This document shows, piece by piece, positions 19,595 through 41,906 of a DNA stretch of 64,000 bases (position 1 is the first letter of the stretch; every line of letters begins with the position of its first letter). Location of the stretch: positions 141,860-205,859 of IMG/VR virus record IMGVR_UViG_3300028797_000096; one strand, given 5' to 3'. The notes beneath the pieces were generated by a model. The model did no database searches. It had not been told where the DNA came from and saw nothing but the letters and a program-made list of their open reading frames with translations. Origin of the DNA: a virus. Taxonomy: Duplodnaviria; Heunggongvirae; Uroviricota; Caudoviricetes. The position numbers and the translations under genes are program-made.

Positions 19595-20335
19595 ATGGAA
19601 CAACCATTAGTTTCAATAGTTTCTTTATTATATGATATAAAAAAAGAATATGTTAATGAATGTATTGAAAGCATACTAAATCAAACATATCAAAATTTGG
19701 AAATTATTTTTATCGATGATTGTTCTCCTAACATAAAATATAATTATATAAAAAAATTATCTCCAAAGATTAAATTAGTAAGAAACAAAACTAATTTAGG
19801 AATGAATAAAACTGCACAAAAAGTATTTAATTTAGCAACGGGTAAATATGTAGTTAGAATAGATAGTGACGATATAATAGATCCAACTTTGATAGAAAAA
19901 GAAGTAACTTTTTTAGAAAATAATCCTAATTATGGGGCGGTATGTTGTGAATTAAAAAGATTTGGTAAAAGACAACAGTATATACATAGACCAGTGCAGT
20001 GGAATTTAAAATCTGTATTATTTGGAAAGATTAATGGTTACGGATATGCCGGTGGAATGATGTTTAGGACTTCTTTGTTGTCAGAAATAGCTATTAATGA
20101 AAATTATAAAATGTGTGAAGATTTTGATTTTCATTTACAAATATTAGAAAGGATGCCAATAAAAAGTATTCTTGAACCATTATATTATTATAGAGCGCAT
20201 GAAACTAATTTATGTAATACTATCAAAACAGAAGAAAGATTACAAATTAATGCTACAATTTTAGCAGTGCATAGAAAATTATATACAGAAATGCATCTTT
20301 CTAAATTAAAGAAAAAAAGAGATAGGTATTTTTAA
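19595..20335 (+). CDS. Glycosyltransferase family 2 (GT-A)
   Basis: PLVSIV..Y...CIESILNQTYQNLEIIFIDDCS, NLG..N..ATGKYV.RIDSDD (DxD), EDFDFHL. Confidence 0.92.
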   Translation: MEQPLVSIVSLLYDIKKEYVNECIESILNQTYQNLEIIFIDDCSPNIKYNYIKKLSPKIKLVRNKTNLGMNKTAQKVFNLATGKYVVRIDSDDIIDPTLIEKEVTFLENNPNYGAVCCELKRFGKRQQYIHRPVQWNLKSVLFGKINGYGYAGGMMFRTSLLSEIAINENYKMCEDFDFHLQILERMPIKSILEPLYYYRAHETNLCNTIKTEERLQINATILAVHRKLYTEMHLSKLKKKRDRYF

Positions 20336-21123
20336 TGAATACAAATAATATGGATTTTGTATATATAATTAAACCTGGCGAAAAAGGTATAGATTTAAGA
20401 TATTCTCTTAGATCGATTGCTAAATATTATCCTAATAATAAAGTATGGATTATTGGATATAAGCCAGCTTGGGTTACAAATGTGGAATATCTTCCGGTTG
20501 AACAAAAAGGAACAAAATGGGCTAATTCTACTTTAAATGTAATCAAAGCTTGTGAATGCCCAAATATTTCAGATAATTTTATCTTAATGAATGATGATTT
20601 TTTTGCAATTAGTCCAATTTTACCGTTAGAAAAAGTAATTGATTCTAATCTAGGAAAATTAGATGATATTATTATTAGGTATAAATCACATGTTGGTGGT
20701 TGGGCAGATGGATTTGCTCATATAAAGAATTTATTAAATGAATTAGGCATTAGAAAACCTTTATATTCATATGAAGCACATTTACCTATAAAAATTAATA
20801 AACAAAAATTTTTAGAAGTAATTAATTTACCACTTGTTCAAGAATTTATGAAAACTTCAAAAGTATTACATAAACGAACTTTATATAAAAATTACGATAA
20901 ACCAAAAAAACCTTTTATATTATCATTTGATGTTAAAGTTACAGAAAAAAGAGATGATTCTTTAGATTTACTTAAAATATGTGGTTGGTTATCTGTAGCA
21001 GATAATATTGTAAATAATAGCAAGTTTAAAGATCTAAATACTTTATTAAATAATACTTTATCTCAACCTTGTAAATATGAGTTACAAAATATTAAAATAC
21101 ATAAAAAAGAAAAATATTTTTAA
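20335..21123 (+). CDS. Stealth-like / GT-A-fold sugar(-phosphate) transferase
   Basis: DFVYI...DLRYSLRSIAKYYP..KVWIIG...SDNFILMNDDFF resembles Stealth CR1/CR2 (D.VYT, ELRYSLRS, FI..NDD). TAATG-coupled to the GT2 gene. Confidence 0.65.
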   Translation: MNTNNMDFVYIIKPGEKGIDLRYSLRSIAKYYPNNKVWIIGYKPAWVTNVEYLPVEQKGTKWANSTLNVIKACECPNISDNFILMNDDFFAISPILPLEKVIDSNLGKLDDIIIRYKSHVGGWADGFAHIKNLLNELGIRKPLYSYEAHLPIKINKQKFLEVINLPLVQEFMKTSKVLHKRTLYKNYDKPKKPFILSFDVKVTEKRDDSLDLLKICGWLSVADNIVNNSKFKDLNTLLNNTLSQPCKYELQNIKIHKKEKYF

Positions 21124-22165: not shown

Positions 22166-22828
22166 TTATACTTTTTTTAATACATGAACACGTGAATCTT
22201 TTTCGCACAAACTAGTAGCTCCTACTCTAAAATTTGTAGGAGTTATTATTTTATTCCGTACAAAGTTAGGTTGTGTATCATTTGTAAAAACTGCCCCACA
22301 ACACCATACCATCAAATCATTATTTAAAGTATCAATAAAGGCTATTTTAGAGCGATGATCTTTTTGATTACCTTCAAAATTTTCAAATGTATGCAGCATT
22401 TTTACTTTATCAGATAATTTACCTGTAATAATCTGAGATCCTCCCAAAAAATAGCATTGATCAGTTAAAGACAGTGCTTTTTTTATAAAGGGTTTTAACA
22501 ACGAAAACGGAGGATTGCCTATAATAAAGCAATCTTTTAAGCTAGTACAAGAATCATTTAAAAAGTCTTGCTGTATAACGGTTGAATCTAATGGGCATAA
22601 ATCATAACTTTTACAAGTTATACCTTTACTACGAATATATTTTTCCCATCTACCATCTGCAGCACAAGGATCTACCCAAGTTTTTTCTCTTAATTCAGGA
22701 TATGTATCAAGTAAATCATCTACAATCAATTTTATAATAAAATCGGGAGTAAAATATAACTCACGATTTTTACCGCGTTTACTTGTATTTCTATTTTTAA
22801 AATAATGCTGTTTTGTTGAATCTGACAT
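22166..22828 (-). CDS. N6-adenine DNA methyltransferase (orphan)
   Basis: YFTP, WVDPCAADG (motif I), DFL, IIGNPPF (motif IV). Confidence 0.85.
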   Translation of the reverse strand: MSDSTKQHYFKNRNTSKRGKNRELYFTPDFIIKLIVDDLLDTYPELREKTWVDPCAADGRWEKYIRSKGITCKSYDLCPLDSTVIQQDFLNDSCTSLKDCFIIGNPPFSLLKPFIKKALSLTDQCYFLGGSQIITGKLSDKVKMLHTFENFEGNQKDHRSKIAFIDTLNNDLMVWCCGAVFTNDTQPNFVRNKIITPTNFRVGATSLCEKDSRVHVLKKV

Positions 22829-22878: not shown

Positions 22879-23466
22879 TTATCTCTTTTTTCTCATTTCT
22901 CTGTCATAGCACTGACGACATACAGATTTATAAACAACATGTCCATCATCAATATCTATAGTTTTACTTTCTCTAATTAAATAACCAGAAGGATGATATC
23001 GTAAATGATGATTTGCAGTATTCATACAACCTATCATTTGACAAGTAGTCCTTAATTCGTGTAATTTAGCCCCTACTTCAATTAAATGTTTAGAAGCAGG
23101 AAATAACTTTTCGTTTACATCTGTTAATAAACCATAACAAAAAATTAATCTATCATATGTATCTGCAAGTTTGACTAAACTATCTATATCTTTTGGCTTA
23201 AAAAATTGAACTTCATCTACCATATATATTTTAGAATAAAATTCTCGCATTTGGATAATGTCTTCCCATTTAATCTCTTTCATAATAGTTGCTGGGCATT
23301 CTAATCCAATTCTAGAAGTAATTTTTGGTTCTTCTGTCCTGCTATCAGCTTTAGGTTTAATTACCCAAACATCGGCATTTTTTTGTTCAAAGTTATATCT
23401 TTCTTGTATTAAATGAGAACTTTTACCTGCTGCCATTGTTCCATAAAAGAAATGAAGATTTGCCAT
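22879..23466 (-). CDS. tdk: Thymidine kinase (TK1 type)
   Basis: YGTMAAGKS Walker A, VDEVQF, YGLLTD, Zn ligands CQMIGC and CRQC. Likely start is MANLHF at 23466 (track 23502). Confidence 0.93.
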   Translation of the reverse strand: MANLHFFYGTMAAGKSSHLIQERYNFEQKNADVWVIKPKADSRTEEPKITSRIGLECPATIMKEIKWEDIIQMREFYSKIYMVDEVQFFKPKDIDSLVKLADTYDRLIFCYGLLTDVNEKLFPASKHLIEVGAKLHELRTTCQMIGCMNTANHHLRYHPSGYLIRESKTIDIDDGHVVYKSVCRQCYDREMRKKR

Positions 23467-23482
23467 TGTATACCTTTTTATT

Positions 23483-23512
23483 AAAAAAGAGGTATATTTC
23501 AACCTCTTTTTT
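23483..23512. terminator. Hairpin/terminator between nrdD C-part and tdk
   Basis: aaaaaagagg-tatatttcaa-cctctttttt. Confidence 0.65.
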
Positions 23513-23520
23513 TGAGAAGT

Positions 23521-23952
23521 TTAGATTAACTGTTCCTTAAGTTGTTCTGCTTTAATAAACTTACGATTTGGAAAATCTTCTTTTCTACGAGTAGGATTCC
23601 AGTTTTCTACAATTGAAAAATATCCAATTACACGAGAAAAATGATTTAATTTTTTACTAGCACAGTGTGGACATATTTCAAAGTTACCTTTTTCTACTTT
23701 ATGGCATTCACGACATTCTGTATAAACACAATTCAAAGCAAAATGTTCTGCACCTGCATCAATTGCTTTCATAATCATATTTTTAGCTTGTTGTGAAGTT
23801 AATTTACTATCTACTGAATAGTGAACAATAGATCCACCTGTCATAAGTGAATTAATTTCACCATCTCGTTTCATTTTTTCAGAGATTGTAAAATCTTCCC
23901 ATAAACTGCACCATTGATTAGCATATATATCTTCCATTTTTCTTTTACGCAT
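23521..23952 (-). CDS. nrdD: Anaerobic (class III) ribonucleotide reductase, C-terminal glycyl-radical part
   Basis: GGSIVH, Zn ribbon CRECH...CPHC, glycyl-radical motif SRVIGYF. Own AGGAG SD. Confidence 0.9.
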   Translation of the reverse strand: MRKRKMEDIYANQWCSLWEDFTISEKMKRDGEINSLMTGGSIVHYSVDSKLTSQQAKNMIMKAIDAGAEHFALNCVYTECRECHKVEKGNFEICPHCASKKLNHFSRVIGYFSIVENWNPTRRKEDFPNRKFIKAEQLKEQLI

Positions 23953-23961
23953 TTTTTACTC

Positions 23962-25716
23962 CTATTCGTATAAGTAATCACCATTTTCATCAGCAAAAAT
24001 TAGTTTATCTGCTTTAGCAATCTTTGGCGCAGCACCTTCGGCTGGGATTGCTTCAATATTAAAAATAATGTTTTCTTGAGTAGCAATTCTTTGACATTCA
24101 TCATTGAAATACACTAAGAAATCTTTCATGTAATCAAAATCGATATGATCAAATTTAAATTTTAAGATCTTATCAGCTTCTACATATCCGACACAACCAA
24201 AAGTACTAAACATATGAGACATATCAATCCATCCATTAGAAATCCAAGGTTGCTTACCTAATTCTTCTAATTTTAAGATTAAAACTTTATGTGCTTTTAA
24301 AATCTTACCCATTCTAGCAACACGCTCTGCTACAATCTTTTTAAAGTCATCATAAGATTCGGCTTCATAAGCACATCTAGCAAAATTAATAGTTACTACA
24401 CGATGTGAGCCTAAAGAGACCTGTGAACCACCAAATGAATTAACACCACCTGCATATGCTAAAAAGTCAGAATCGCTTAATAAACGACAGCATGAAGCAA
24501 CTTTTGAACCTTCTGAAGCATAAATATTATAACGAGAAATATCTGCATTCTTGGTCAAATAATCAAGCAATTTATTATCTTCATATGTTAACTTATTATT
24601 ACCGCTTTCATCTTTAGTAGTACCAAAGTTACAGGTAGTTACAGGAAATGGAAATTGTAAACCACCACGTAATGGATCACCTTCATCGAAGACATCAATA
24701 TAAATTTCTTGTAATTCTTCAATATAATCTAAAACAAATTCTTTCCAAGCTTCTTTTGTATCTTCTATATTATTATCTTCGCATACTGCTGCTTTTTTAG
24801 GAAAATACCAACCATAATTATCATCTTCGATTAAACCTTCTAATTTGTTTTTATCAAATAACGATACATTGGTAAAAGGTGATTCTACAGCATTACGAGA
24901 ATAATGATTTACTGTATGAATAAATTGCTGGAAATGATTTGCCATAGATTTCCGTACTTTTTTGTCATTTCTAAGGTCATCTAAAGCAATACGTTCACGG
25001 TAAATTGCCAAATGACAAACATCCATAAAGAAAGTACCAATGGCTACAGCACCTGCAATATTAAAGGAAATTTCACGAATTGTATCTCCTAATACTGAAA
25101 TATAAGTAGAAATACGATGAGCAGGTGAAGAATGTACTTGACCAAAATTACGACCTTCTGTTACAATTTTAGAAGCATCGATACAATAACAATATGGAAT
25201 AAGGATTTTAGTAGAATCGTTTAAAAAAAGACTAAAATCATACATATCTGCTGTACATTTTTTAGCCTCTTCTTTACCATATAAATCTTTAATAGTTTGA
25301 TATAAATAATCATATCCTGCTAATTTTTGATATGGTAGAAATGATTCTACACAAACACCTGTCATATTTGAATCTGTTTTATTTGCATTATCATCAATAG
25401 ATACATCATTTACAGACTGAAGATTACCAAATACTTGTTTGGAGATATTAGCTAATGGATCAAAATTTTCAGCAGATAAACCATGTAATTTAAGTAATTC
25501 ATTTACTTTATCTTTTAAAACTTCTTTATCTTTAATATCATACTTAGACCGAAGCGCTTTCGTTAATGTTTCTGTAATATTTTTTAAAGTACGAGTAGTT
25601 GTAGCATCAGACAAATTTGCATCAATAAGCTTATTCATCTCATCCTGATATGGATTTTCCATATTATTATCGAATTCAGGAAACTTAATTTTAATCGCTT
25701 TCTTTTCTTCGGTCAT
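23962..25716 (-). CDS. nrdD: Anaerobic (class III) ribonucleotide reductase, N-terminal catalytic part (no ATP cone)
   Basis: ESPFTNVS, FPFPVTT, ASCCRL finger loop, LGSHRVVTIN, FSTFGCVG, NIEAIPAEG. Ends at TAG. Confidence 0.9.
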   Translation of the reverse strand: MTEEKKAIKIKFPEFDNNMENPYQDEMNKLIDANLSDATTTRTLKNITETLTKALRSKYDIKDKEVLKDKVNELLKLHGLSAENFDPLANISKQVFGNLQSVNDVSIDDNANKTDSNMTGVCVESFLPYQKLAGYDYLYQTIKDLYGKEEAKKCTADMYDFSLFLNDSTKILIPYCYCIDASKIVTEGRNFGQVHSSPAHRISTYISVLGDTIREISFNIAGAVAIGTFFMDVCHLAIYRERIALDDLRNDKKVRKSMANHFQQFIHTVNHYSRNAVESPFTNVSLFDKNKLEGLIEDDNYGWYFPKKAAVCEDNNIEDTKEAWKEFVLDYIEELQEIYIDVFDEGDPLRGGLQFPFPVTTCNFGTTKDESGNNKLTYEDNKLLDYLTKNADISRYNIYASEGSKVASCCRLLSDSDFLAYAGGVNSFGGSQVSLGSHRVVTINFARCAYEAESYDDFKKIVAERVARMGKILKAHKVLILKLEELGKQPWISNGWIDMSHMFSTFGCVGYVEADKILKFKFDHIDFDYMKDFLVYFNDECQRIATQENIIFNIEAIPAEGAAPKIAKADKLIFADENGDYLYE

Positions 25717-28276: not shown

Positions 28277-29152
28277 TTAAACGGCTATTTCAAAACTTAC
28301 TTTTTCTCCATATTGATAATTTTCTAATTTAGCCATATCTGGTAAGAAATTAAATACTGTTGCATTTGGATCTAAGATTAAATTAGGCAAAGGAATTTCA
28401 CATTTTTCCCAAGTATTCATATGCTCAGCAATAATAGGAAGATGATTATCATAAATATGACAATTACAAAACTCTAATGTTAATGTACCAACCTGCATAC
28501 CAACTGTTTGTGCCATTAAATGTAATAATAAAGCACCTTGAACCATATCTGATGGTACACCTAAAATAGTATCTGCACTTCTTTGAATTCCTGTTAGATG
28601 TAATTGATTATTAAGATAATTAAATTGCCATGTATGTAGGCATGGTGGTAAACCCATTGTATCCATATGAGCAGGATCCCACGCTGTCATAATCATACGA
28701 CGATCATATGGATTTGTTTTAAGAGTATCTACAATTTGAGAAAGCTGATCAATACCTTGTCCTTTATAACCTGTATCATAGCTTTCATATTGTGCACCAA
28801 AATAACGATAATTCCAACCATAAATATTACCTAAATCTCTCTCTTCTTTCATTCCTTCTTTATTAAAATATGGAACTTTTTTAGGATTACACCAATAATC
28901 CCAATAATTACAACCACGCTCTTTATATATTTGCTTATCTGTAATCCCTTCTAAAAAGCAAGATAATTCACCTTTTACGCCTTTAAAAGGAATTTGTCTA
29001 AAAGTAAGAATAGGAAAGCCTTCGTTTAAATCCCAGGTAAGACTTTTATTTAATCTTACAAGGACTTCGTTGCCTGTACGGCAAGGCGCATTAAAACCTT
29101 CCTTTAAAATTTCTTTAAGCAAATTTAAATATTGTTGGTTGTAAGCATTCAT
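28277..29152 (-). CDS. thyA: Thymidylate-synthase-family enzyme with Asp at the Asn177 position (possible dCMP methyl-/hydroxymethyl-transferase)
   Basis: RTG, FPILT, KGEL, DRRM, LPPC (catalytic Cys), QRSAD and HIYDNH are present. However it reads GVPSD where ThyA has GxPFN, and PCL where ThyA has PCH. Confidence 0.85.
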   Translation of the reverse strand: MNAYNQQYLNLLKEILKEGFNAPCRTGNEVLVRLNKSLTWDLNEGFPILTFRQIPFKGVKGELSCFLEGITDKQIYKERGCNYWDYWCNPKKVPYFNKEGMKEERDLGNIYGWNYRYFGAQYESYDTGYKGQGIDQLSQIVDTLKTNPYDRRMIMTAWDPAHMDTMGLPPCLHTWQFNYLNNQLHLTGIQRSADTILGVPSDMVQGALLLHLMAQTVGMQVGTLTLEFCNCHIYDNHLPIIAEHMNTWEKCEIPLPNLILDPNATVFNFLPDMAKLENYQYGEKVSFEIAV

Positions 29153-30209: not shown

Positions 30210-30719
30210 TTATTTTGAACCAGTACTTCCAAAACCACCTGTTGCTCTTTTTGTTTTTGGACCCTGATCATATACTTTATTAGGTACACCTTTTAAAGCT
30301 TCATTTGAGATGTTAATAATAATACCTTGAATAATCTTATCACCTGGATTAATTACAGTTGCCCATTCTTTAAATCCTAACCAACCTAAAAATCCTTTAC
30401 GACGAACTCGAATATCTTCGGTGCCTTTTACTACTTTAAACATATTCAAATGAATTTCACCACGATAACCTGCATCAATTACACAAGCACCAAATACTAA
30501 ACCTTTCTTTAATGCTACACCAGATTTATTCATCATTTGTAAATATTGATTGCTTTTTAATTTAGTTTTAATACCAGATGGAATATTAACTTGTTCACCT
30601 AATCTCAAAATATAAGATTTACCTTCATTCCAATCATTTGGAACGAAAAAGTCAATACCAGCATCTTCTTGGCGATTACCAATTGGATCTTTAACATCCT
30701 TAATTTTTGTATAAATCAT
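30210..30719 (-). CDS. dut: Trimeric dUTPase
   Basis: AGIDF, NKSG, VIDAGYRGEI, KIIQ, RATGGFGSTG (motifs 1-5). Confidence 0.93.
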   Translation of the reverse strand: MIYTKIKDVKDPIGNRQEDAGIDFFVPNDWNEGKSYILRLGEQVNIPSGIKTKLKSNQYLQMMNKSGVALKKGLVFGACVIDAGYRGEIHLNMFKVVKGTEDIRVRRKGFLGWLGFKEWATVINPGDKIIQGIIINISNEALKGVPNKVYDQGPKTKRATGGFGSTGSK

Positions 30720-30795: not shown

Positions 30796-31002
30796 TTAAA
30801 AACCCCAAACCTGTTTTTGAATACGTTGGCGTTTCATTTCATTACGTACTTGTTCTTTTTTACGTTGAACTTTGCGTACATTTGGTTTAATATATCTACT
30901 ACGGCGTTTTTGTTCAAATGAAAAGCCTTCTTTAAGACCTTTACGTTTAATCTTTTTTAATGCTTTTTCAACATTATTATCTACAACCAATACTTTAACC
31001 AT
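30796..31002 (-). CDS. rpsU: Ribosomal protein bS21
   Basis: VKVLVVDNNVEKALKKIKRK..KEG...EQKRRSRYIKPNVRK fits the bS21 consensus (V.V....V..AL...K.....G...E...R..Y.KP). Confidence 0.85.
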   Translation of the reverse strand: MVKVLVVDNNVEKALKKIKRKGLKEGFSFEQKRRSRYIKPNVRKVQRKKEQVRNEMKRQRIQKQVWGF

Positions 31003-34800: not shown

Positions 34801-35055
34801 CTAGTCTAAGCCTGCTGCTTTAGAATATGCGTTAAACAATTCTTTTTCTTCAGCGATTTGATCACGATCTTTTTTGCGCTGACGAACTACATAATCAATA
34901 CCTTTTTTAGCAAAACCTTCTGCTTTTGCTTCTTCATAAATTGCCTTTTTACTAGCATTAGCATCAGTAATTGTATCGTTATATACTTCAATTCGTTCAA
35001 CATATTGTAATAAGCGAGCTTTATCTACTTCAACTGTCATAATATTTTCCTCCAT
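34801..35055 (-). CDS. gapR: GapR / DUF2312 family nucleoid-associated protein
   Basis: RLLQYVERIE..N......KKAIYEEAKAEGF..K.I..VVRQRKKD.....EE..LF..Y..AAG matches the DUF2312 consensus. Start may be 35040. Confidence 0.85.
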   Translation of the reverse strand: MEENIMTVEVDKARLLQYVERIEVYNDTITDANASKKAIYEEAKAEGFAKKGIDYVVRQRKKDRDQIAEEKELFNAYSKAAGLD

Positions 35056-35294
35056 TAAATCAAATTAGATACATGAAAATCACAAGGATTACCATTTTTA
35101 AAACTAGTAGCACCCATGTATGATTTTAAAGTACCCATATATTTATGATTTTTTGTATTAAACAATTGAACACTGCCTTGATTTGTAATACTTACACTTA
35201 TATTATTTTCTTTTAATTGATTATAAACTTTAGTGGGTAATATAATATCACAACCACGACGATTCAATTTTGTGTATTTAATAGACCATGCCAT
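35055..35294 (-). CDS. Hypothetical protein
   Basis: AAGGAG SD; ATTCTA motif upstream. Confidence 0.6.
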   Translation of the reverse strand: MAWSIKYTKLNRRGCDIILPTKVYNQLKENNISVSITNQGSVQLFNTKNHKYMGTLKSYMGATSFKNGNPCDFHVSNLI

Positions 35295-35341
35295 TTCGTA
35301 CTCCTTTTTTAATGTTACACATAATTATAGAATAACATAAT

Positions 35342-36532
35342 TTATTCATTTTCGGATGAAGAATTTTCCGTTTCTACAATTTGATCTTCCAAACCGAATT
35401 GCTTAACAGCTTCTTTATAAGGATCTTCTGAATTATAAATAGCTTCAAGATCTACACCGTGCTCGTCTGTAGTAACTTCTGTATCATCTTCTACTTCACC
35501 GTTCATTTCTACATTTTTACCAGTTACATATGATAATACGGTTTCTTTAAAATGTTGCATACGATCTGGATCTTCTTTTAACCAAATCATAGCTTTTTCT
35601 TTACCTTGAGCAATGTTTTCACCTTTATAGCGTACCCATGCACCTGCTTTTTCTAAAATACCAAATTTTACAGCAAGATCAAATACTTCTTCTTCTTGAG
35701 ATACACCTTTACCATATCTAATAATAAATTTAGCCGTACGGAAAGGAGGAGCAACTTTATTTTTCACAACTTTAACTGTAGTTTCAACAGATGTAGCGAC
35801 TTCTTCACCATTAATCTTTTCTGTAGTAGGTGATTGCTTTTTCCAGATTTTCATAATAACAGTACTATAGAATTTTAATGCTTCACCACCTGACATAACA
35901 TCAGTATCACCATACATAACACCAATATTCTTACGAGTCTGTGAAATAAAGAAACACATACAACCAGCATCATAAGCCAATGGAGTAATACGTTTTAAAC
36001 CATCAGACATCATTTTAGCTTGTCTACCAATAAAGTTATCACCCATTTCACCTTCACGCTCTTGCATTGAAATCATAGTAGAAACAGAGTCAAATACAAT
36101 AACTTTAACTAACTTTTGTTTTAATAAAGCTTCAGCCATTTGAAAACATTCTACACCATCATTTGGTTGAGCAAATAATAAGTGCTTCAAATCTACACCT
36201 AAAGCTTGAGCATATCCAAGATCAACCGCGTGTTCTGAATCTAAATATGCACATAAATATCCTTGTTTTTGAGCATTTGCTACTAATTGTAATGCAATAG
36301 TAGATTTACCAGATGATGATTCACCATAAATTGTATTAATTCTTCCCATAGGTAAACCACCAACTCCTAAAGCAACATCAAGATTTAATGAACCAGTAGA
36401 AACTGTATCAATTTTCTTAATTGCTGTAGTGTCATCAAAAGTTAACATTGAATCTTCACCAAATTGTTTATGAATCAATGCCAAAGCAGCTGCCATGTCT
36501 TTATCTAATTGAGTTTTTTCAACTTTAGCCAT
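35342..36532 (-). CDS. recA: RecA recombinase
   Basis: STGSLNLDVALGVGGLP.GR, YGESSSGKST, VFDSVS, GGEALKFYS, KNKVAPPFR. Confidence 0.98.
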   Translation of the reverse strand: MAKVEKTQLDKDMAAALALIHKQFGEDSMLTFDDTTAIKKIDTVSTGSLNLDVALGVGGLPMGRINTIYGESSSGKSTIALQLVANAQKQGYLCAYLDSEHAVDLGYAQALGVDLKHLLFAQPNDGVECFQMAEALLKQKLVKVIVFDSVSTMISMQEREGEMGDNFIGRQAKMMSDGLKRITPLAYDAGCMCFFISQTRKNIGVMYGDTDVMSGGEALKFYSTVIMKIWKKQSPTTEKINGEEVATSVETTVKVVKNKVAPPFRTAKFIIRYGKGVSQEEEVFDLAVKFGILEKAGAWVRYKGENIAQGKEKAMIWLKEDPDRMQHFKETVLSYVTGKNVEMNGEVEDDTEVTTDEHGVDLEAIYNSEDPYKEAVKQFGLEDQIVETENSSSENE

Positions 36533-36561
36533 GTATTACTCCTATTTAAATTTCATATATA

Positions 36562-37050
36562 TTAGAATTTAATTATTTTATTAACTTTTTCACGAATTTC
36601 TTCTAAACACTGCCCAATAAACACACTACAATGTGCTTTTATTTTAGGTAAGTCTAAGGTTTCCATAATATTTTTAGTTAATTCTTGTGTATTAATATCA
36701 AATAAATTTTTTCCAATTATTTGTTCACAGCCATAAGAAGTACTTGATAATGAACCATAACAACCCGTAGATAAAAATTTAGCATCTAATATAGTATTAT
36801 GATTAGTATCTAATTTTACCCATAAATTTACAATATCACCACAAGCAGGTCCTCCAAAGGCTCCTTCAAAAACTGATACATTATCTTCTTGTAATATTAA
36901 ATTTAAATTATCATCTCTATTCAAATACTTACCATCTTGTGCGTATTGAATAGCCAAAGATGAATAAGAAATACCATGACCTCTGTTACTTATTTGATCC
37001 AAAGAATGATCAACTGTACAAGTATTACAATTTCCAGAACAACTTTCCAT
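36562..37050 (-). CDS. iscU: IscU/NifU-type Fe-S scaffold with N-terminal extension
   Basis: GPACGD, GCYGS, KAHCS (three scaffold Cys). Extra N-terminal CSGNCNTC. Confidence 0.85.
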   Translation of the reverse strand: MESCSGNCNTCTVDHSLDQISNRGHGISYSSLAIQYAQDGKYLNRDDNLNLILQEDNVSVFEGAFGGPACGDIVNLWVKLDTNHNTILDAKFLSTGCYGSLSSTSYGCEQIIGKNLFDINTQELTKNIMETLDLPKIKAHCSVFIGQCLEEIREKVNKIIKF

Positions 37051-37052
37051 TT

Positions 37053-38288
37053 TTAATCCTTTTTATAAGTACTTGCTTTTGCTAAATTTTTTACCGCTTC
37101 ATCAAAAGTAGGCTGAAAATCTTCTACAATTTGATTTATAGTTAAAGAACTATCATAAGAAATACGAACTGCACTATTTGCATAAGTATCTAAAATATCT
37201 TCACTTTGTACACCTAAATTTTTATAATAATTCTTAATTACTTCACTTCCCGATAAGTTTTCTTCGCTACATGCACTTCCAGTTGAAATACATATTTTAT
37301 TACCTAAAGCACTAACTAAACTTTCACCTTCAATACCTAAAATTGAAAAATTAATAATATAAGGCGAATATTCATCTGTATTTTTAGAAGTAAATAATAA
37401 TTCTACTGCTTTATTATATTTATTTACTATTTCTGGAATAATTTGATAAAAAGCGGTTTTAATAATTTGAGCTTTAGTATAATTATTATTAAGGTTATTC
37501 ATATGATCTTCAATAAGTTTATTTAATAAATATACAAATGTTGGATTTTCTGTACCCGATCTTAATCCATTTTGTTGCATACCACCTTTAATCAATGGAT
37601 TTTTTTGAATATACTTCTCTACTATTCCTTTTTTATAAATTAATCCACCGAAACTTTTAAAAAATCCAATTTTATGAGCAGAAAATGAATAGCAATCAAT
37701 ATCTGTCATATCATAAGGAATTTTACAAAAGCCTTGAGTAAAATCTAAATGTACAACAATTTCAGCATCTGGAAATTTAGAATGAACGTATTCTTTTGCT
37801 GATAGTACTTTATCTACTGGAATAATTAGACCTGTTTCATTATTTACTGCAATAATAGATATTAAAATACGTGTATAAGAAATAAGTATACCATCTAAAT
37901 ATGTTGGTGTATTTGTAATAATATCAAATAAATTAATTTGAATCCAACGAGTAATACCATTACTAACAACACAAGCACTAGAAGCGGCTTTAACTGCATG
38001 ATGTTCAAGATCTGTTGTAATAATTAGTTCAGGATTAAAAGAATAAAAAATGGTATTAATCGATTCTGTTGCACCAGAAGTAAATAAAATATTCCAATCT
38101 TCATTATGATTTAAACATTGTAAAATATTTAATTTACTCTTTTCTATTGCTTGATATGCTTTTTCACCTTCTTTATGAAAAGAAGCAGGATTACCAAAAA
38201 TATTTATAGCATCATAATAATTTCTACTAACAATATTAGAAACAGGTGCAGTTGCTGCATAATCTAGATATAATACTTCATCTTCCAT
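37053..38288 (-). CDS. iscS: Cysteine desulfurase (IscS/NifS)
   Basis: YLDYAAT, GNPAS, FTSGATES, NNETG, HLDFTQ, SAHK (PLP Lys), RSGTEN, STGSACS (catalytic Cys). Confidence 0.95.
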   Translation of the reverse strand: MEDEVLYLDYAATAPVSNIVSRNYYDAINIFGNPASFHKEGEKAYQAIEKSKLNILQCLNHNEDWNILFTSGATESINTIFYSFNPELIITTDLEHHAVKAASSACVVSNGITRWIQINLFDIITNTPTYLDGILISYTRILISIIAVNNETGLIIPVDKVLSAKEYVHSKFPDAEIVVHLDFTQGFCKIPYDMTDIDCYSFSAHKIGFFKSFGGLIYKKGIVEKYIQKNPLIKGGMQQNGLRSGTENPTFVYLLNKLIEDHMNNLNNNYTKAQIIKTAFYQIIPEIVNKYNKAVELLFTSKNTDEYSPYIINFSILGIEGESLVSALGNKICISTGSACSEENLSGSEVIKNYYKNLGVQSEDILDTYANSAVRISYDSSLTINQIVEDFQPTFDEAVKNLAKASTYKKD

Positions 38289-38366
38289 AATACTTTTACT
38301 CCTTCATTAAAAAATTATATAACTTTTTTAATAAAAGATACAGACGTTTTTTTCCAATTCCAAAAT

Positions 38367-38391
38367 AAAAAGAGCCTAATAAATAGGCTCT
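38367..38391 (-). terminator. Terminator after clpP
   Basis: gagccta-ataaa-taggctc with an A run on the left (T run on the minus strand). Confidence 0.7.
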
Positions 38392-38415
38392 CAGACAACA
38401 AGAACAAACAATTTT

Positions 38416-39003
38416 TTATTTTTTAACTTTTTTAACTTCATCACAACCACCATATTTTTTCCATTCAGTGGCAGTTAACCAATAATCTCTATCACAATCC
38501 TTCTTTAATTTATCTATAGGTTGATCTAATCTTTTAGATAAATATTCAAAGATTTCTTCATTGGTTTGTTTAGCTTGATTCATATAAATTTCCATATCTT
38601 GAACTTTACCTTGTGCTTGACTTGCTACTGTATGTAACATAATTTTAGCATGTGGTAAAGCATAACGCATACCTTTTTCTCCAGATACTGCAATTACAGT
38701 AGCCATACTAGCAACATCACCCTGTACAATAGTAGATATTGGACATTTAATATCATTCATTGTATCAATAATTGACCAACCGGCCGAAACTGAACCACCG
38801 GGACTTTGGATTAACATTTTAATTGGTTTTTCTTTATCTTCTGATTCCAAATAACGTAATTGTGCTACTATTTCCATAGCCATCTCATCTTCAATTTCAC
38901 CTTGAAGAATAATAATACGATCTTTAGCCAAACGAGTAGCTAAATTAATAAAACTATCATTACCCTTGGAATCTGTCCAAACAACACCAGGTATACCTAA
39001 CAT
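38416..39003 (-). CDS. clpP: ClpP protease proteolytic subunit
   Basis: RLAKDRII, QSPGGSV, ASMA (Ser), IMLH (His), DRDYWLTA (Asp). Confidence 0.95.
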   Translation of the reverse strand: MLGIPGVVWTDSKGNDSFINLATRLAKDRIIILQGEIEDEMAMEIVAQLRYLESEDKEKPIKMLIQSPGGSVSAGWSIIDTMNDIKCPISTIVQGDVASMATVIAVSGEKGMRYALPHAKIMLHTVASQAQGKVQDMEIYMNQAKQTNEEIFEYLSKRLDQPIDKLKKDCDRDYWLTATEWKKYGGCDEVKKVKK

Positions 39004-39037
39004 ATATAAACTCCTTAATTTAAGTTAATTTATATTA

Positions 39038-39068
39038 ATTATATATGTATTTTAATACAATGTAAAGC
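39038..39068 (-). promoter_or_regulatory. Sigma70-type (early) promoter
   Basis: Minus strand GC-TTTACA-N17-TATAAT upstream of clpP. Confidence 0.72.
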
Positions 39069-39070
39069 AG

Positions 39071-40396
39071 TTATTTATAAAATTCACCGACTTCATTTAA
39101 TAATGATACAATAACAGATGTAATTTCTTGCTGATCACCTTGTTTTAATAAAATACTAGCAATTACTTTACCTAGGGTATTACTCATTTCTTCAGTAAAA
39201 CCACGAGTTGTAATAGCAGGTGTACCTAATCTAATACCTGTACATTCTGAAGGTTTAGTATCTCCGGTAATCATATTTTTATTACAAATAATATGGTTTG
39301 CTGTCAATAAATCTTCAGCTTCTTTACCTGTAATTCCTGCACCTTTAACATCGAGTAATATCATGTGATTTTCAGTATCAGCACCACTAACAAAACGTAA
39401 TTTATGTTCAGTATCTTCTTCTTCAATACCTTTAACTAATGCTTTTATATTAGTATGTACTTGATTAATATAATCTTTAAATTCAGGCTGTAATGCTTCA
39501 ATAAACGCTTGAGCTTTGGCTGCTACTGCTGCTTGATTAGTACCACCTGCATTAGCTGGAAATACGGCTTGATTAATTTTCTTACAATAATCTGGATTAT
39601 TCCATAAAATAATTGCAGAACGCGGGCCTCTTAAAGTTTTATGAGTAGTTGTAGTTACCACATCTGACCATTGTGTTGGATCATATTTATCTTCCCATAC
39701 ATGAGCAGCAATAAATCCACTAAAATGAGCCATGTCAGTCCAAAGAATACATTTTTTAGATTCATACTCTTTTTCTTCTTCTTCTGGTGGAAATCCCATA
39801 CAATGCTTAATGTTTAATAATAATTCTTTATTATATTCATCAACTATTTCACGTACTTTTTGAAAATCAATCTTTTTTGAATATGCAGAATAGCCCATAA
39901 TTAACAATCTTGGGCATACATCATATAATTTAGATTTTATTTCATCATAATCAATTCTTTCATTAATTAATTCATAGTTATGATTTTCATAAAAACGACC
40001 AGAATGTGTAAATTTACTTCCATGAGTTAAATGCGCTAATTCATTAAGATTACCTGATAAGGTACGATCTCCTGGTTTACAAAAAGCATAATATACACAA
40101 GTATTAGCATGTGATCCAGACATTGGTTGTACATTAGCAAATTTAACTCTAAACAATTCACATGCTTTAACAATACAATATTCTTCTAATTCATCAATAA
40201 CTTCACAACCAGCATAATGACGACCTTGTTTAGATACAGATAAAGGATAACCTTCTGTATAAGGTACAGAACAAGCAGAACCCATTAAATCTAATATATC
40301 TTGAGATGGATAATTCTCAGATGCAATAAGTACTAATTCACTATTTAATTTATCTTTTTCTTTATTAACAATTTGATTTAATGTTTTGTCTATCAT
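39071..40396 (-). CDS. glyA: Serine hydroxymethyltransferase
   Basis: LIASEN, EGYP, NVQP.SGS, HLTHG, DMAH, TTTHKTLRGPR (PLP Lys), NKN, RLGTPAITTRG. Confidence 0.97.
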   Translation of the reverse strand: MIDKTLNQIVNKEKDKLNSELVLIASENYPSQDILDLMGSACSVPYTEGYPLSVSKQGRHYAGCEVIDELEEYCIVKACELFRVKFANVQPMSGSHANTCVYYAFCKPGDRTLSGNLNELAHLTHGSKFTHSGRFYENHNYELINERIDYDEIKSKLYDVCPRLLIMGYSAYSKKIDFQKVREIVDEYNKELLLNIKHCMGFPPEEEEKEYESKKCILWTDMAHFSGFIAAHVWEDKYDPTQWSDVVTTTTHKTLRGPRSAIILWNNPDYCKKINQAVFPANAGGTNQAAVAAKAQAFIEALQPEFKDYINQVHTNIKALVKGIEEEDTEHKLRFVSGADTENHMILLDVKGAGITGKEAEDLLTANHIICNKNMITGDTKPSECTGIRLGTPAITTRGFTEEMSNTLGKVIASILLKQGDQQEITSVIVSLLNEVGEFYK

Positions 40397-40774: not shown

Positions 40775-40809
40775 AAAAAAATTCCCCAGAATTAACTGGG
40801 GAAAATTTT
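40775..40809. terminator. Terminator after the CofE-like gene
   Basis: ttccccag-aattaa-ctggggaa flanked by A and T runs. Confidence 0.75.
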
Positions 40810-41906
40810 TAATCATTGGACATATTGTCAAAATAGCCTTGGACATATATAAACGGTGTCCCTTTATCACCCGATCCTGAAGTAAGATCCATTAACGAAC
40901 CTAATAAATCAGTATATCTACGCGGTGTCGTACCTTGACTCATCATATTGCCTTTCAAGTTAGAACTTTTATTTTTAATTTCTTCTTTGATAGCCGTATT
41001 TAATTCTTCACCATGTAAATCTTTATACTTTTCATCAGCAAAGTTTTTAATTTTAATTTCATTTGGAGTACCTTGTAATCCCATAGTTGAGGCAGGACTT
41101 ACTACTGGATCAGCAAATTCCCAAATTCCACCAACAGGATCTTTGAAACAGCCATCTCCATAAATCATAACCTCAATCAGTTTTCCAGTTGCATCTTTAA
41201 TTCTTTGTTGAACTTCTCTAACTAAATTTCTTGAATATTCACCACTTGGAAATAGTTTTAACATTTCTTCAGATGCTTTATTAGAGCCATATAAACCATA
41301 TTCACATTTATTTCTACAAATATATGCTAACGTACAATAACCACCGATATTATTTTTCAATTCTTTTATTTCTTCTTCATTACTCGTTGTAAAATACATT
41401 CTAGCATCTATTACAAATGGATTCTCTTTATAAATAGAAAGTAATTCTTTATTTTTTATATCATCAATAATTTCACACTCTTTACCTTCGCCTTCTACAA
41501 TTGATTTATAATATTCATCATAATTTAATTTAGTAAAAGGATGATTTCTTATTACATTGCCAACTTCATCAACTGGTGGCATAATAATAACTACTTTTTT
41601 ACCAGTTCCTCTAGCAATTGCTTTTAAAATCATAGCAAAACGATTACGGGAATAAATTGGTCTATCTATAATAATAACATCCGCATTATCACTAATTTTT
41701 CTAACTTCTTCTGCTACTTCATCAATAGTAACATAATTACCTTGACATCTAGCAACGATAGATTCTGTAATACCTAATACATCTCTATCTTTAATTTCTA
41801 AACCAGAATTCAAAACCGTATCAACTACAATCTGAATTAAATCATCACCTTGTTTGATAATAGGTGCTCTTAAACCATATGAAGCTGTTCCAATAGTTCT
41901 TACCAT
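40809..41906 (-). CDS. F420-0:gamma-glutamyl ligase (CofE)-like protein
   Basis: LRAPIIKQGDDL..IV, DVLGITESIVARCQGN, SRNRF, DEVGN, GDGCFKDP..GIWEFADP, GTTPRRYTDLLGSLMDLTSGSGDKGTPF resemble the bacterial CofE-like family. Confidence 0.8.
   Translation of the reverse strand: MVRTIGTASYGLRAPIIKQGDDLIQIVVDTVLNSGLEIKDRDVLGITESIVARCQGNYVTIDEVAEEVRKISDNADVIIIDRPIYSRNRFAMILKAIARGTGKKVVIIMPPVDEVGNVIRNHPFTKLNYDEYYKSIVEGEGKECEIIDDIKNKELLSIYKENPFVIDARMYFTTSNEEEIKELKNNIGGYCTLAYICRNKCEYGLYGSNKASEEMLKLFPSGEYSRNLVREVQQRIKDATGKLIEVMIYGDGCFKDPVGGIWEFADPVVSPASTMGLQGTPNEIKIKNFADEKYKDLHGEELNTAIKEEIKNKSSNLKGNMMSQGTTPRRYTDLLGSLMDLTSGSGDKGTPFIYVQGYFDNMSND

What the first reader, a model, noticed from the sequence alone, without database searches (positions are those of the whole stretch)
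28277..29152. ThyA homolog carries the dCMP-specificity signature (Asn177 to Asp; His147 lost)
Seen: QRSADTILGVPSDM aligns without gaps to E. coli ThyA QRSCDVFLGLPFNI, placing Asp (GAT, 28547-28549) at Asn177. LPPCLH has Leu where ThyA has His147. Catalytic Cys, Glu58, the phosphate-binding Args and His207/Tyr209 are kept. Established: Asn177 selects dUMP; the Asn-to-Asp mutants of E. coli (N177D) and L. casei (N229D) TS become dCMP methylases, and T4 dCMP hydroxymethylase has Asp here. Inference: this gene likely makes 5-methyl- or 5-hydroxymethyl-dCMP rather than dTMP and would be mis-annotated as plain thyA.
Basis: partly seen in the sequence, partly recalled or inferred. Interest (0 to 1): 0.85.

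Follow-up and report, generated by a model that had tools for sequence, protein, structure and literature searches.

The report
Jumbo-phage ThyA homologue retuned to dCMP
A 232-kb uncultured cattle-gut phage carries a "thymidylate synthase" whose base-selecting residue is switched from uracil to cytosine while the rest looks like a methyl-adding enzyme, so it most likely makes 5-methyl-dCMP (for 5-methylcytosine DNA and/or thymidine); phages such as Xp12 are already known to do this.

Summary
ORF 28277-29152 (minus strand, 291 aa) is a full-length ThyA-family protein. It has Asp (GAT, 28547-28549) at E. coli Asn177 and Leu at His147, and every other catalytic residue is kept. The Asp is invariant in 120 metagenomic relatives (60-100% identity).

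- Leu is kept three residues before the catalytic Cys, where hydroxymethylases have Asp/Glu.
- There is no Ser-x-Tyr motif.
- Trp80/Trp83, Asp169 and the TS C-terminal tail are all kept.

It is the only ThyA homologue in the 93%-complete genome, and there is no ThyX. The phage also encodes DHFR, SHMT, thymidine kinase and a deaminase 30% identical to Xp12's.

The best reading is a dCMP C5-methylase (5-methyl-dCMP synthase), as in Xp12/PaMx74, but in a TS background only 25% identical to Xp12's enzyme. A separate origin is likely, but the AU test does not establish it.

The kind is published (Hardy 1992; MetaGPA 2021; mSCD preprint 2024), and this scan has already reported it on at least 27 other genomes. 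No biochemical or DNA-modification data exist for this phage. C-containing restriction sites are still avoided, which weakly argues against full protection.

Verdict: a new member of a known kind, of modest interest.

The parts
28277..29152 (-). ThyA-family ORF (291 aa, P0001), predicted dCMP C5-methylase (5-methyl-dCMP synthase)
   Evidence: PF00303 E 1.3e-70 over the full profile. About 45% identity to solved eukaryote-type and WSSV TS. AF2 pLDDT 93.8 with TM 0.9 to human and mouse TS. It is the only PF00303 match in the genome.
28547..28549 (-). GAT codon for Asp202, at E. coli Asn177 (T4 dCH Asp179); the cytosine-selecting residue
   Evidence: Sequence read, alignment. Invariant in 120 relatives.
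28637..28642 (-). TGC CTA, catalytic Cys171 (E. coli Cys146) followed by Leu172 in place of His147
   Evidence: Position 172 is Leu, Met or Val and never His in 120 relatives.
28649..28651 (-). Codon for Leu168, at E. coli Leu143 (T4 dCH Asp145); the residue three before the catalytic Cys that separates methylases (hydrophobic) from hydroxymethylases (Asp/Glu)
   Evidence: Alignment; invariant L168 in alignment A1. The rule comes from PMC6400193 and PMC13326640.
28571..28573 (-). GAT codon for Asp194, at E. coli Asp169; kept, so this is not the D169N signature of 5-hydroxy-dCMP synthases
   Evidence: The rule comes from PMC13326640.
28280..28297 (-). C-terminal tail VSFEIAV, aligned to E. coli KAPVAI; the TS tail that seals the active site for hydride transfer and is missing in T4 dCMP hydroxymethylase
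   Evidence: Alignment. The role of the tail is described in PMC6400193.
29542..29937 (-). MazZ-like all-alpha NTP pyrophosphohydrolase (PF18909), two genes upstream; candidate dCTP-to-dCMP supplier (inferred only)
   Evidence: Pfam E 4.5e-21; phrog_801. Present next to ThyA in relative L012 but not within the 10-kb flanks of L010 and L011. No detectable similarity to the PaMx74 PRA-PH enzyme.
30210..30719 (-). Trimeric dUTPase-family protein with canonical dUTPase motifs; a conserved neighbour
   Evidence: PF00692 and phrog_135. PDB dUTPase matches with the motifs aligned. Syntenic in L010, L011 and L012. No similarity to T4 gp56 dCTPase.
39071..40396 (-). Serine hydroxymethyltransferase; regenerates the one-carbon donor 5,10-methylene-THF
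   Evidence: PF00464 E 2.8e-105; also listed in the precomputed gene table.
22879..23502 (-). Thymidine kinase (dTMP salvage)
   Evidence: PF00265 E 2.9e-34.

Best explanation
The gene encodes a thymidylate-synthase-fold enzyme that uses dCMP instead of dUMP and transfers and reduces the one-carbon unit of 5,10-methylene-THF, giving 5-methyl-dCMP plus dihydrofolate.

Proposed mechanism (inferred from family chemistry):
- Cys171 attacks C6 of dCMP.
- Asp202 recognises and protonates N3/N4 of cytosine. The loss of His147 adapts the C4 side of the pocket.
- The exocyclic methylene intermediate stays sealed from water by Leu168, Trp84/Trp87 and the C-terminal tail, so hydride transfer from THF C6 yields a methyl group rather than a hydroxymethyl group.

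The phage's own DHFR (genome C1:18111-18713) and SHMT (window 39071-40396) recycle the folate.

5-methyl-dCMP is then phosphorylated by an unidentified kinase, probably the host's. It is then incorporated into phage DNA as 5-methylcytosine, or deaminated to thymidine nucleotides by the phage dCMP-deaminase-family protein (C1:19777-20352), as proposed for Xp12, or both.

Shown here: the sequence signature, its conservation, the fold and the gene inventory. Inferred: substrate, product and the fate of the product.
For: (1) Asp at Asn177 and Leu at His147, with all other catalytic and phosphate-binding residues kept. The Asp is invariant in 120 relatives.

(2) Literature. Asn177Asp and Asn229Asp convert TS to dCMP methylases. 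Positions 177 and 147 are the top discriminators of cytosine-modified viral contigs (PMC8670742). Xp12's enzyme and 5 of 7 natural Asp177 homologues produced 5mdC in vivo (10.1101/2024.12.05.627091).

(3) Methyl rather than hydroxymethyl:
- Leu three residues before Cys (T4 dCH has Asp145, which is essential).
- No Ser/Thr-x-Tyr motif; the sequence is N-I-Y.
- Trp83 equivalent kept.
- TS C-terminal tail kept (rules in PMC6400193, and PMC13326640).
- Asp169 kept, so it is not a 5-hydroxy-dCMP synthase.

(4) It is the only PF00303 hit in a 93%-complete genome and there is no ThyX, yet the phage encodes DHFR. DHFR is needed only if the folate product is dihydrofolate. The 98%-complete relative G001 likewise has one Asp177 TS and one DHFR.

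(5) A dCMP-deaminase-family ORF lies two genes from DHFR. It is 30% identical (E 5e-17) to the Xp12 deaminase, including a shared C-terminal HHRWG motif.

(6) The AF2 model is confident (pLDDT 93.8) with TM 0.9 to solved TS.
Against: No enzymology and no nucleoside or modification data exist for this phage or its clade.

The genomic context (dUTPase, DHFR, SHMT, TK) is equally what a plain dTMP pathway looks like, so the substrate call rests on two residues plus literature precedent.

The Xp12-type cassette (PPase-TS-deaminase-DHFR side by side) is not reproduced. DHFR and the deaminase lie about 150 kb from the TS gene. The neighbouring MazZ-like PPase is unrelated in sequence to Xp12/PaMx74 PRA-PH and is missing from the immediate neighbourhood in two relatives.

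No phage dNMP kinase was found (PF02223, PF21448).

The Leu143 rule is a correlation. In my alignment Xp12 itself has Asn or Val there, depending on gap placement.

C-containing palindromes are under-represented in the genome: GGATCC observed/expected 0.21, GGTACC 0.25, GATATC 0.48, GTTAAC 0.53, GAATTC 0.60, CATG 0.64. This is not expected if cytosine modification gave blanket protection. It bears on the fate of the product, not on the enzyme.
Confidence: 0.72

Rival explanations
1. It is an ordinary thymidylate synthase (dUMP to dTMP) in which Asp177 and Leu147 are tolerated lineage-specific substitutions. The dUTPase next door supplies dUMP, and DHFR and SHMT recycle the folate.
For: It is closest in sequence and fold to canonical TS (39-45% identity; TM 0.9). 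It passes the TIGR03284 equivalog cut-off. A canonical dUTPase, DHFR, SHMT and TK are all present. It is the phage's only TS, so the phage would otherwise depend on host ThyA, salvage or deamination for dTMP.
Against: Asn177 is the major determinant of uracil specificity, and the Asp mutants lose dUMP preference (literature summarised). The Asp is invariant over a clade spanning 60-100% identity and co-varies with loss of His147. That is what selection for a different substrate looks like. Natural Asp177 enzymes tested so far made 5mdC.
Confidence: 0.1
2. It is a dCMP hydroxymethylase (5hm-dCMP synthase) like T4 gp42. The product is later decorated by the nearby GT2 and Stealth-like transferases (window 19595-21123).
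For: It shares Asp177 with T4 gp42. A family-2 glycosyltransferase and a Stealth_CR2-like protein lie about 8 kb away. The methyl versus hydroxymethyl rules are based on few characterised enzymes.
Against: All published hydroxymethylase signatures fail: Leu rather than Asp/Glu three residues before Cys, no Ser/Thr-x-Tyr, Trp83 kept, C-terminal tail present. A hydroxymethylase releases THF, which would leave the phage DHFR without a phage-encoded DHF source. Identity to gp42 is very low and gp42 sits on a long branch. The GT2's best phage matches are O-antigen-conversion-type (GtrB-like) families.
Confidence: 0.08
3. The enzyme is a dCMP methylase, but its biological role is only a 'cytosine-first' route to thymidine (dCMP to 5mdCMP, then phosphorylation and deamination to dTTP). 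Virion DNA carries little or no 5-methylcytosine.
For: There are two dCMP-deaminase-family ORFs, one related to Xp12's. No recognisable dCTPase of the T4 gp56 type was found. C-containing restriction sites are clearly avoided, as if the DNA were still exposed to ordinary type II restriction. The preprint proposes 5mdCTP deamination as a dTTP source.
Against: In every characterised phage with this enzyme (Xp12, PaMx74) 5mC fully replaces C. Asp177 TS genes are strongly enriched on contigs that survive selection for modified cytosine. The phage has TK and can use host ThyA, so a costly detour only for dTMP is not obviously needed.
Confidence: 0.2

Closest known systems
Deoxycytidylate C5-methyltransferase (5mdCMP synthase) of Xanthomonas phage Xp12 (QNN97214.1) and Pseudomonas phage PaMx74 (ALH23493.1)
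   Same: Both are ThyA-fold enzymes with Asp at Asn177 and no His at 147, and with Asp169 and a C-terminal extension kept. The phage also encodes DHFR and a related dCMP-family deaminase (30% identity to Xp12's). The predicted product is 5-methyl-dCMP.
   Different: Only 25% identical, against 39-45% to Asn177 TS. Position 147 is Leu rather than Pro. The Xp12 loop insertion before the catalytic Cys is absent. The genes are scattered over a 232-kb jumbo genome instead of a PPase-TS-deaminase-DHFR cassette. The neighbouring PPase belongs to a different family (PF18909, not PRA-PH). Trees place the two apart, but the AU test cannot reject one clade (p 0.27 and 0.75).
Canonical thymidylate synthase ThyA/TYMS (E. 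coli b2827; human, mouse and WSSV TS structures)
   Same: Full-length fold (TM about 0.9). All catalytic, phosphate-binding and folate-contacting residues are kept, including Leu143, Trp80/83, Asp169 and the C-terminal tail. The LPPC motif is of the eukaryote/virus type.
   Different: Asn177 is Asp and His147 is Leu. These are the two positions published as discriminating cytosine- from uracil-directed family members.
Engineered E. coli N177D and L. casei N229D thymidylate synthases (Hardy & Nalivaika 1992; Liu & Santi 1992; cited via PMC8670742 and PMC13326640)
   Same: The same single-residue switch in an otherwise TS-like active site, and those mutants methylate dCMP.
   Different: This is a natural enzyme with the additional His147 change and a long history of purifying selection on the Asp.
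T4 gp42 dCMP hydroxymethylase (NP_049659.1; PDB ternary complex described in PMC6400193)
   Same: Asp at the base-selecting position, and the same Cys/Glu/Tyr catalytic core.
   Different: gp42 has Asp145 (Leu here), Ser94-x-Tyr96 (Asn-Ile-Tyr here), Val for Trp83 and no C-terminal tail. It releases THF rather than DHF.
RB69 gp48 / DLP3 gp80 5-hydroxy-dCMP synthases (PMC13326640)
   Same: A phage ThyA homologue with Asp177.
   Different: Those carry D169N and L143E. Here both positions keep the TS residues (Asp194, Leu168).

Membership tests
Thymidylate synthase superfamily (Pfam PF00303, ThyA fold) | Full-length match to the family profile and the ThyA fold | tested here: met
   PF00303 E 1.3e-70, profile 1-266/266. 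AF2 pLDDT 93.8 with Foldseek TM 0.87-0.91 to human, mouse and WSSV TS.
Thymidylate synthase superfamily (Pfam PF00303, ThyA fold) | Catalytic Cys146, Glu58, Tyr94, and phosphate-binding Arg21, Arg126'/127' and Arg166 | tested here: met
   All are present in the alignment with E. coli ThyA and invariant in family alignment A1.
Canonical dTMP synthase (EC 2.1.1.45, dUMP-specific) | Asn at position 177 (uracil O4/N3 recognition) and His147 | tested here: not met
   Asp202 and Leu172. No member of the 120-protein clade has Asn or His at these positions.
Canonical dTMP synthase (EC 2.1.1.45, dUMP-specific) | Catalytic preference for dUMP; complementation of thyA | not testable with these tools
   Needs an enzyme assay or a genetic test.
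dCMP C5-methyltransferase (5mdCMP synthase, Xp12/PaMx74 type) | Asp at position 177 in a ThyA-fold enzyme | tested here: met
dCMP C5-methyltransferase (5mdCMP synthase, Xp12/PaMx74 type) | Features for reductive methylation: no acidic residue three before the catalytic Cys, Asp169 kept, C-terminal tail present | tested here: met
   Leu168, Asp194 and the tail SFEIAV.
dCMP C5-methyltransferase (5mdCMP synthase, Xp12/PaMx74 type) | Orthology or a common clade with the characterised Xp12/PaMx74 enzymes | tested here: inconclusive
   25% identity. Free trees separate them, but a tree holding them together is not rejected (AU p 0.75 and 0.27). The Xp12 branch is very long.
dCMP C5-methyltransferase (5mdCMP synthase, Xp12/PaMx74 type) | Companion genes: DHFR, dCMP-family deaminase, NTP pyrophosphohydrolase | tested here: met
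   DHFR and the deaminase are present but lie about 150 kb away. The adjacent PPase is PF18909 rather than PRA-PH. The genes are therefore present but not arranged as a cassette.
dCMP C5-methyltransferase (5mdCMP synthase, Xp12/PaMx74 type) | Production of 5-methyl-dCMP; 5mC in virion DNA | not testable with these tools
   Only DNA contigs from bovine gut metagenomes hold the sequence, and there are no modification data.
dCMP hydroxymethylase (T4 gp42 type) | [quoted passage not shown] | tested here: not met
   Leu168, Asn109-Ile110-Tyr111 and the tail is present.
5-hydroxy-dCMP synthase (RB69 gp48 type) | D169N (with L143E) (PMC13326640) | tested here: not met
   Asp194 and Leu168 are both invariant in the clade.

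The most novel reading that the evidence does not exclude
A widespread family of about 230-260-kb jumbo phages of the anaerobic cattle gut or rumen replaces cytosine with 5-methylcytosine. It does so with a dCMP methylase that arose separately from the Xp12 lineage, out of a eukaryote/virus-type TS. The phage draws its thymidine from the same 5-methyl-dC nucleotide pool through a phage deaminase, with a complete phage-encoded folate cycle (SHMT, DHFR).
Probability: 0.35. Interest if true: 0.5.

Novelty: new member of a known kind. Interest (0 to 1): 0.35.

Why it matters
If the prediction holds, a large and so far uncultured family of rumen and gut jumbo phages has 5-methylcytosine DNA. Over 100 distinct 90%-identity protein clusters were found in ENA, Logan and JGI metagenomes, on contigs up to 263 kb.

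That would have four consequences:
- It would affect how these phages are seen by restriction and modification-dependent defence systems.
- It would bias bisulfite or enzymatic methylome and nanopore analyses of rumen samples.
- It would mean that annotation pipelines naming the gene "thymidylate synthase" misdescribe the phage's nucleotide metabolism.
- It would add a second, very divergent TS background carrying the Asn177Asp switch, which is useful for understanding how few changes retarget this enzyme.

The principle itself is textbook since 1992. It is documented for natural phage enzymes, and this scan has already reported it many times.

Tried and rejected
- Close relatives in GenBank phages. 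Megablast of 24 kb found nothing. tblastn found only TS at 39% identity or less.
- The search for related loci with the single protein found nothing. The family alignment was needed.
- T4-type dCTPase. The dUTPase-family neighbour has no BLAST similarity to T4 gp56 and carries canonical dUTPase motifs, so I do not call it a dCTPase.
- The MazZ-like protein against the PaMx74 PRA-PH pyrophosphohydrolase: no similarity, and no PDB sequence match. Its role as a dCTP-to-dCMP supplier stays a guess.
- Phage dNMP kinase. No hit for PF02223 or PF21448.
- C5 DNA methyltransferase (PF00145): none.
- Tet/JBP dioxygenase (PF12851): none, but the control rang nowhere, so that search is uninformative.
- The 124-aa ORF between the PPase and ThyA, and the 350-aa ORF between DHFR and the deaminase, had no Pfam or PHROG family. 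The atlas gave nothing usable for the first and only sigma/HTH-like leads for the second.
- Independent origin from Xp12. I expected to show it, but the AU tests do not reject a common clade. In the quick LG+G4 analysis the constrained tree even had the better likelihood. I therefore do not claim it.
- Expression. No RNA holder was listed.
- Restriction-site statistics as a proxy for modification gave an ambiguous result. KpnI-type sites, which are cut even in Xp12 DNA (PMC7653180), are avoided. So are sites that, from my own recollection and not checked here, are blocked or impaired by 5mC (BamHI, EcoRI, EcoRV, HpaI types).

Full report
**What is there**

The window is part of a 231,566-bp IMG/VR virus record estimated 93% complete. 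It has 29% G+C, and near-identical DNA is held in bovine gut metagenome runs. The ORF at 28277-29152 on the minus strand encodes 291 aa (P0001). It matches Pfam Thymidylat_synt over the whole profile (E 1.3e-70). It is about 45% identical over the aligned core to solved eukaryote-type and WSSV thymidylate synthases. An AlphaFold2 model built on 37 relatives is confident (pLDDT 93.8, pTM 0.93) and superposes on human, mouse and WSSV TS with TM 0.87-0.91.

**Checking the observation**

I fetched real reference sequences rather than trusting memory:
- E. coli K-12 ThyA (L001)
- T4 gp42 (L002)
- PaMx74 ThyA (L006)
- Xp12 ThyA (L007)

In an L-INS-i alignment, QRSADTILGVPSDM aligns without gaps to E. 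coli QRSCDVFLGLPFNI, and MGLPPCLH aligns to MALAPCHA. So Asp202 is Asn177, Leu172 is His147 and Cys171 is Cys146. The minus-strand read confirms GAT at 28547-28549 and TGC-CTA at 28642-28637.

Arg21, Glu58, Trp80, Tyr94, Arg126/127, Arg166, Ser167, Asp169, His207 and Tyr209 are kept. T4 gp42, Xp12 and PaMx74 all have Asp in the Asn177 column.

The substitution is not private. In 120 proteins of 60-100% identity from ENA, Logan and JGI metagenomes, Asp202 is invariant and position 172 is Leu, Met or Val, never His.

I also tabulated 160 TS homologues: P0001, ten of its closer relatives and the 149 other best 50%-identity representatives of an exhaustive HMMER search.

| Residue at 177 | Total | Lacking His147 |
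|---|---|---|
| Asp | 30 (11 from this family) | 22 |
| Asn | 126 | 6 |

This reproduces the published co-variation.

**What the literature says**

The MetaGPA study (PMC8670742) aligned 433 viral TS homologues. Positions 177 and 147 were the two most discriminating between contigs with modified and unmodified cytosine. It cites the N177D and N229D experiments.

The mSCD preprint (10.1101/2024.12.05.627091) shows that Xp12's TS homologue and 5 of 7 metagenomic Asp177 homologues produce 5mdC in vivo. It proposes that an associated dCMP-family deaminase converts 5mdCTP to dTTP.

Two papers give rules for the product.
- The T4 dCH ternary complex paper (PMC6400193) defines hydroxymethylases by four features: an essential Asp/Glu three residues before the catalytic Cys, a Ser/Thr-x-Tyr motif, replacement of Trp83, and absence of the C-terminal tail that seals the TS active site for hydride transfer.
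- The 5-hydroxycytosine paper (PMC13326640) adds D169N as the signature of 5-hydroxy-dCMP synthases. It repeats the Leu143 (methyl) versus Asp/Glu143 (hydroxymethyl) correlation.

**Applying those rules**

| Feature | P0001 | Meaning |
|---|---|---|
| Residue three before the catalytic Cys | Leu168, invariant | methylase-like |
| Ser/Thr-x-Tyr motif | Asn109-Ile110-Tyr111 | motif absent |
| Trp80/Trp83 equivalents | Trp84, Trp87 | kept |
| Asp169 equivalent | Asp194, invariant | not a 5-hydroxy-dCMP synthase |
| C-terminal tail | ...SFEIAV-COOH, aligned to E. coli ...KAPVAI | present |

Every hydroxymethylase and hydroxylase signature fails and every methylation feature is present.

One caveat applies. 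The Leu143 rule is correlative, and Xp12 itself shows Asn or Val there depending on gap placement.

**Genome context**

This is the only PF00303 match in the genome and there is no ThyX. The phage nevertheless encodes:
- DHFR (C1:18111-18713; PF00186 E 1.8e-24)
- SHMT (window 39071-40396)
- thymidine kinase (22879-23502)
- a canonical-looking dUTPase (30210-30719)
- two dCMP-deaminase-family ORFs

One deaminase sits two genes from DHFR. It is 30% identical (E 5e-17) to the Xp12 deaminase, with a shared HHRWG motif.

A hydroxymethylase releases THF, whereas a methylase releases DHF. A phage DHFR beside a single TS homologue therefore fits methylation. It fits an ordinary dTMP synthase equally well, so context does not settle the substrate question.

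Two genes upstream of ThyA lies a MazZ-like NTP pyrophosphohydrolase (PF18909). By analogy with the PRA-PH enzymes next to the Xp12 and PaMx74 TS genes, it could supply dCMP from dCTP. It is unrelated to them in sequence and is not a constant neighbour.

No dNMP kinase, C5 DNA methyltransferase or Tet/JBP enzyme was detected.

In three IMG/VR relatives with the same Asp/non-His signature (L010, L011, L012; 58-62% identity), the order DNA polymerase, dUTPase, ThyA, NrdG, NrdD is conserved. The 98%-complete 237-kb relative again has exactly one TS and one DHFR.

**Relationship to the known dCMP methylases**

P0001 is 25% identical to the Xp12 enzyme, against 39-45% to Asn177 enzymes. In both a quick 104-row tree and a careful 65-row mixture-model tree, its clade (support 98-100) nests in a group of mostly viral-looking TS in which Asn177 and Asp177 lineages are interspersed. 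Xp12 and PaMx74 sit on a very long branch elsewhere.

AU tests do not reject a tree that unites the two (p 0.75 and 0.27). In the quick analysis the constrained tree even scored better. A separate origin is plausible but not shown.

**Is the DNA modified?**

This cannot be read from sequence. As a proxy I computed maximal-order Markov expectations for palindromes in the whole genome. The z values below are halved-count estimates that I worked out by hand from the table.

| Site | Observed/expected | Approximate z |
|---|---|---|
| GGATCC | 0.21 | -4 to -5 |
| GGTACC | 0.25 | -4 to -5 |
| GATATC | 0.48 | -4 to -5 |
| GTTAAC | 0.53 | -4 |
| GAATTC | 0.60 | -4 |
| CATG | 0.64 | -9 |

KpnI cuts fully 5mC-substituted Xp12 DNA (PMC7653180), so avoiding GGTACC is compatible with 5mC DNA. 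Avoidance of the other sites suggests the DNA is still exposed to classical restriction. I count this as weak evidence against complete, fully protective replacement. It keeps alive the variant in which 5mdCMP mainly feeds thymidine synthesis.

**Verdict**

The kind is known from three sources: the engineered mutants of 1992, the natural phage enzymes of Xp12 and PaMx74, and metagenome-wide association. This scan has already reported the same signature on at least 27 other genomes, including another jumbo phage.

What is specific here is the lineage (a large family of cattle-gut jumbo phages), the very TS-like background, and the dispersed gene layout with a phage-encoded folate cycle.

It is a new member of a known kind, of modest interest.

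Noticed in passing
L018, L019, L025, L031, L032 (IMG/VR loci, match coordinates); proteins P0137, P0198, P0207: Viral ThyA homologues with Ser or Thr, neither Asn nor Asp, at the Asn177 position while keeping His147, Leu143 and Asp169. I found no statement on their substrate in the papers I read.
   Followed up: no
window 40809-41906 (-), next to SHMT at 39071-40396: A 365-aa protein of the F420-0:gamma-glutamyl ligase family (PF01996, E 5.9e-45) lies directly upstream of the phage SHMT. It may add glutamate tails to a folate-type cofactor, which would extend the phage-encoded folate cycle.
   Followed up: no
window 19595-20335 (+) and 20335-21123 (+): A family-2 glycosyltransferase sits beside a Stealth_CR2-like protein (below the Pfam cut-off; phrog_7999 E 7.7e-50), about 8 kb from ThyA on the other strand. 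They are probably surface-polysaccharide related, but DNA decoration is not excluded.
   Followed up: partly
whole genome G000:C1: GGATCC, GGTACC, GATATC, GTTAAC, GAATTC, CATG and CTAG are markedly under-represented against maximal-order Markov expectation. These are candidate restriction targets of the unknown host.
   Followed up: partly
window 23521-23952 (-) and 23962-25716 (-): The anaerobic ribonucleotide reductase NrdD is called as two adjacent ORFs of 584 and 143 aa, both PF13597. It is either a split gene or an unrecognised interruption.
   Followed up: no
window 30796-31002 (-): A phage-encoded ribosomal protein S21 homologue (PF01165 in the precomputed table) lies between the DNA polymerase and dUTPase genes.
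   Followed up: no
window 22166-22828 (-): A 220-aa ORF next to thymidine kinase has no Pfam hit but partly matches phrog_799, 'DNA methyltransferase' (E 9.7e-16, profile 200-322/458). Which domain this represents is unclear.
   Followed up: no
G000:C1:55290-55751 (-) (L009:3291-3752): A second, more divergent dCMP_cyt_deam_1 family ORF (153 aa, E 9e-8) with no PHROG match.
   Followed up: no
window 34801-40396 (-): The replication and nucleotide block also carries RecA, GapR-like, IscS-like (Aminotran_5), NifU-like and ClpP genes. This is unusual cargo for a phage and was already noted by another reader of this window.
   Followed up: no
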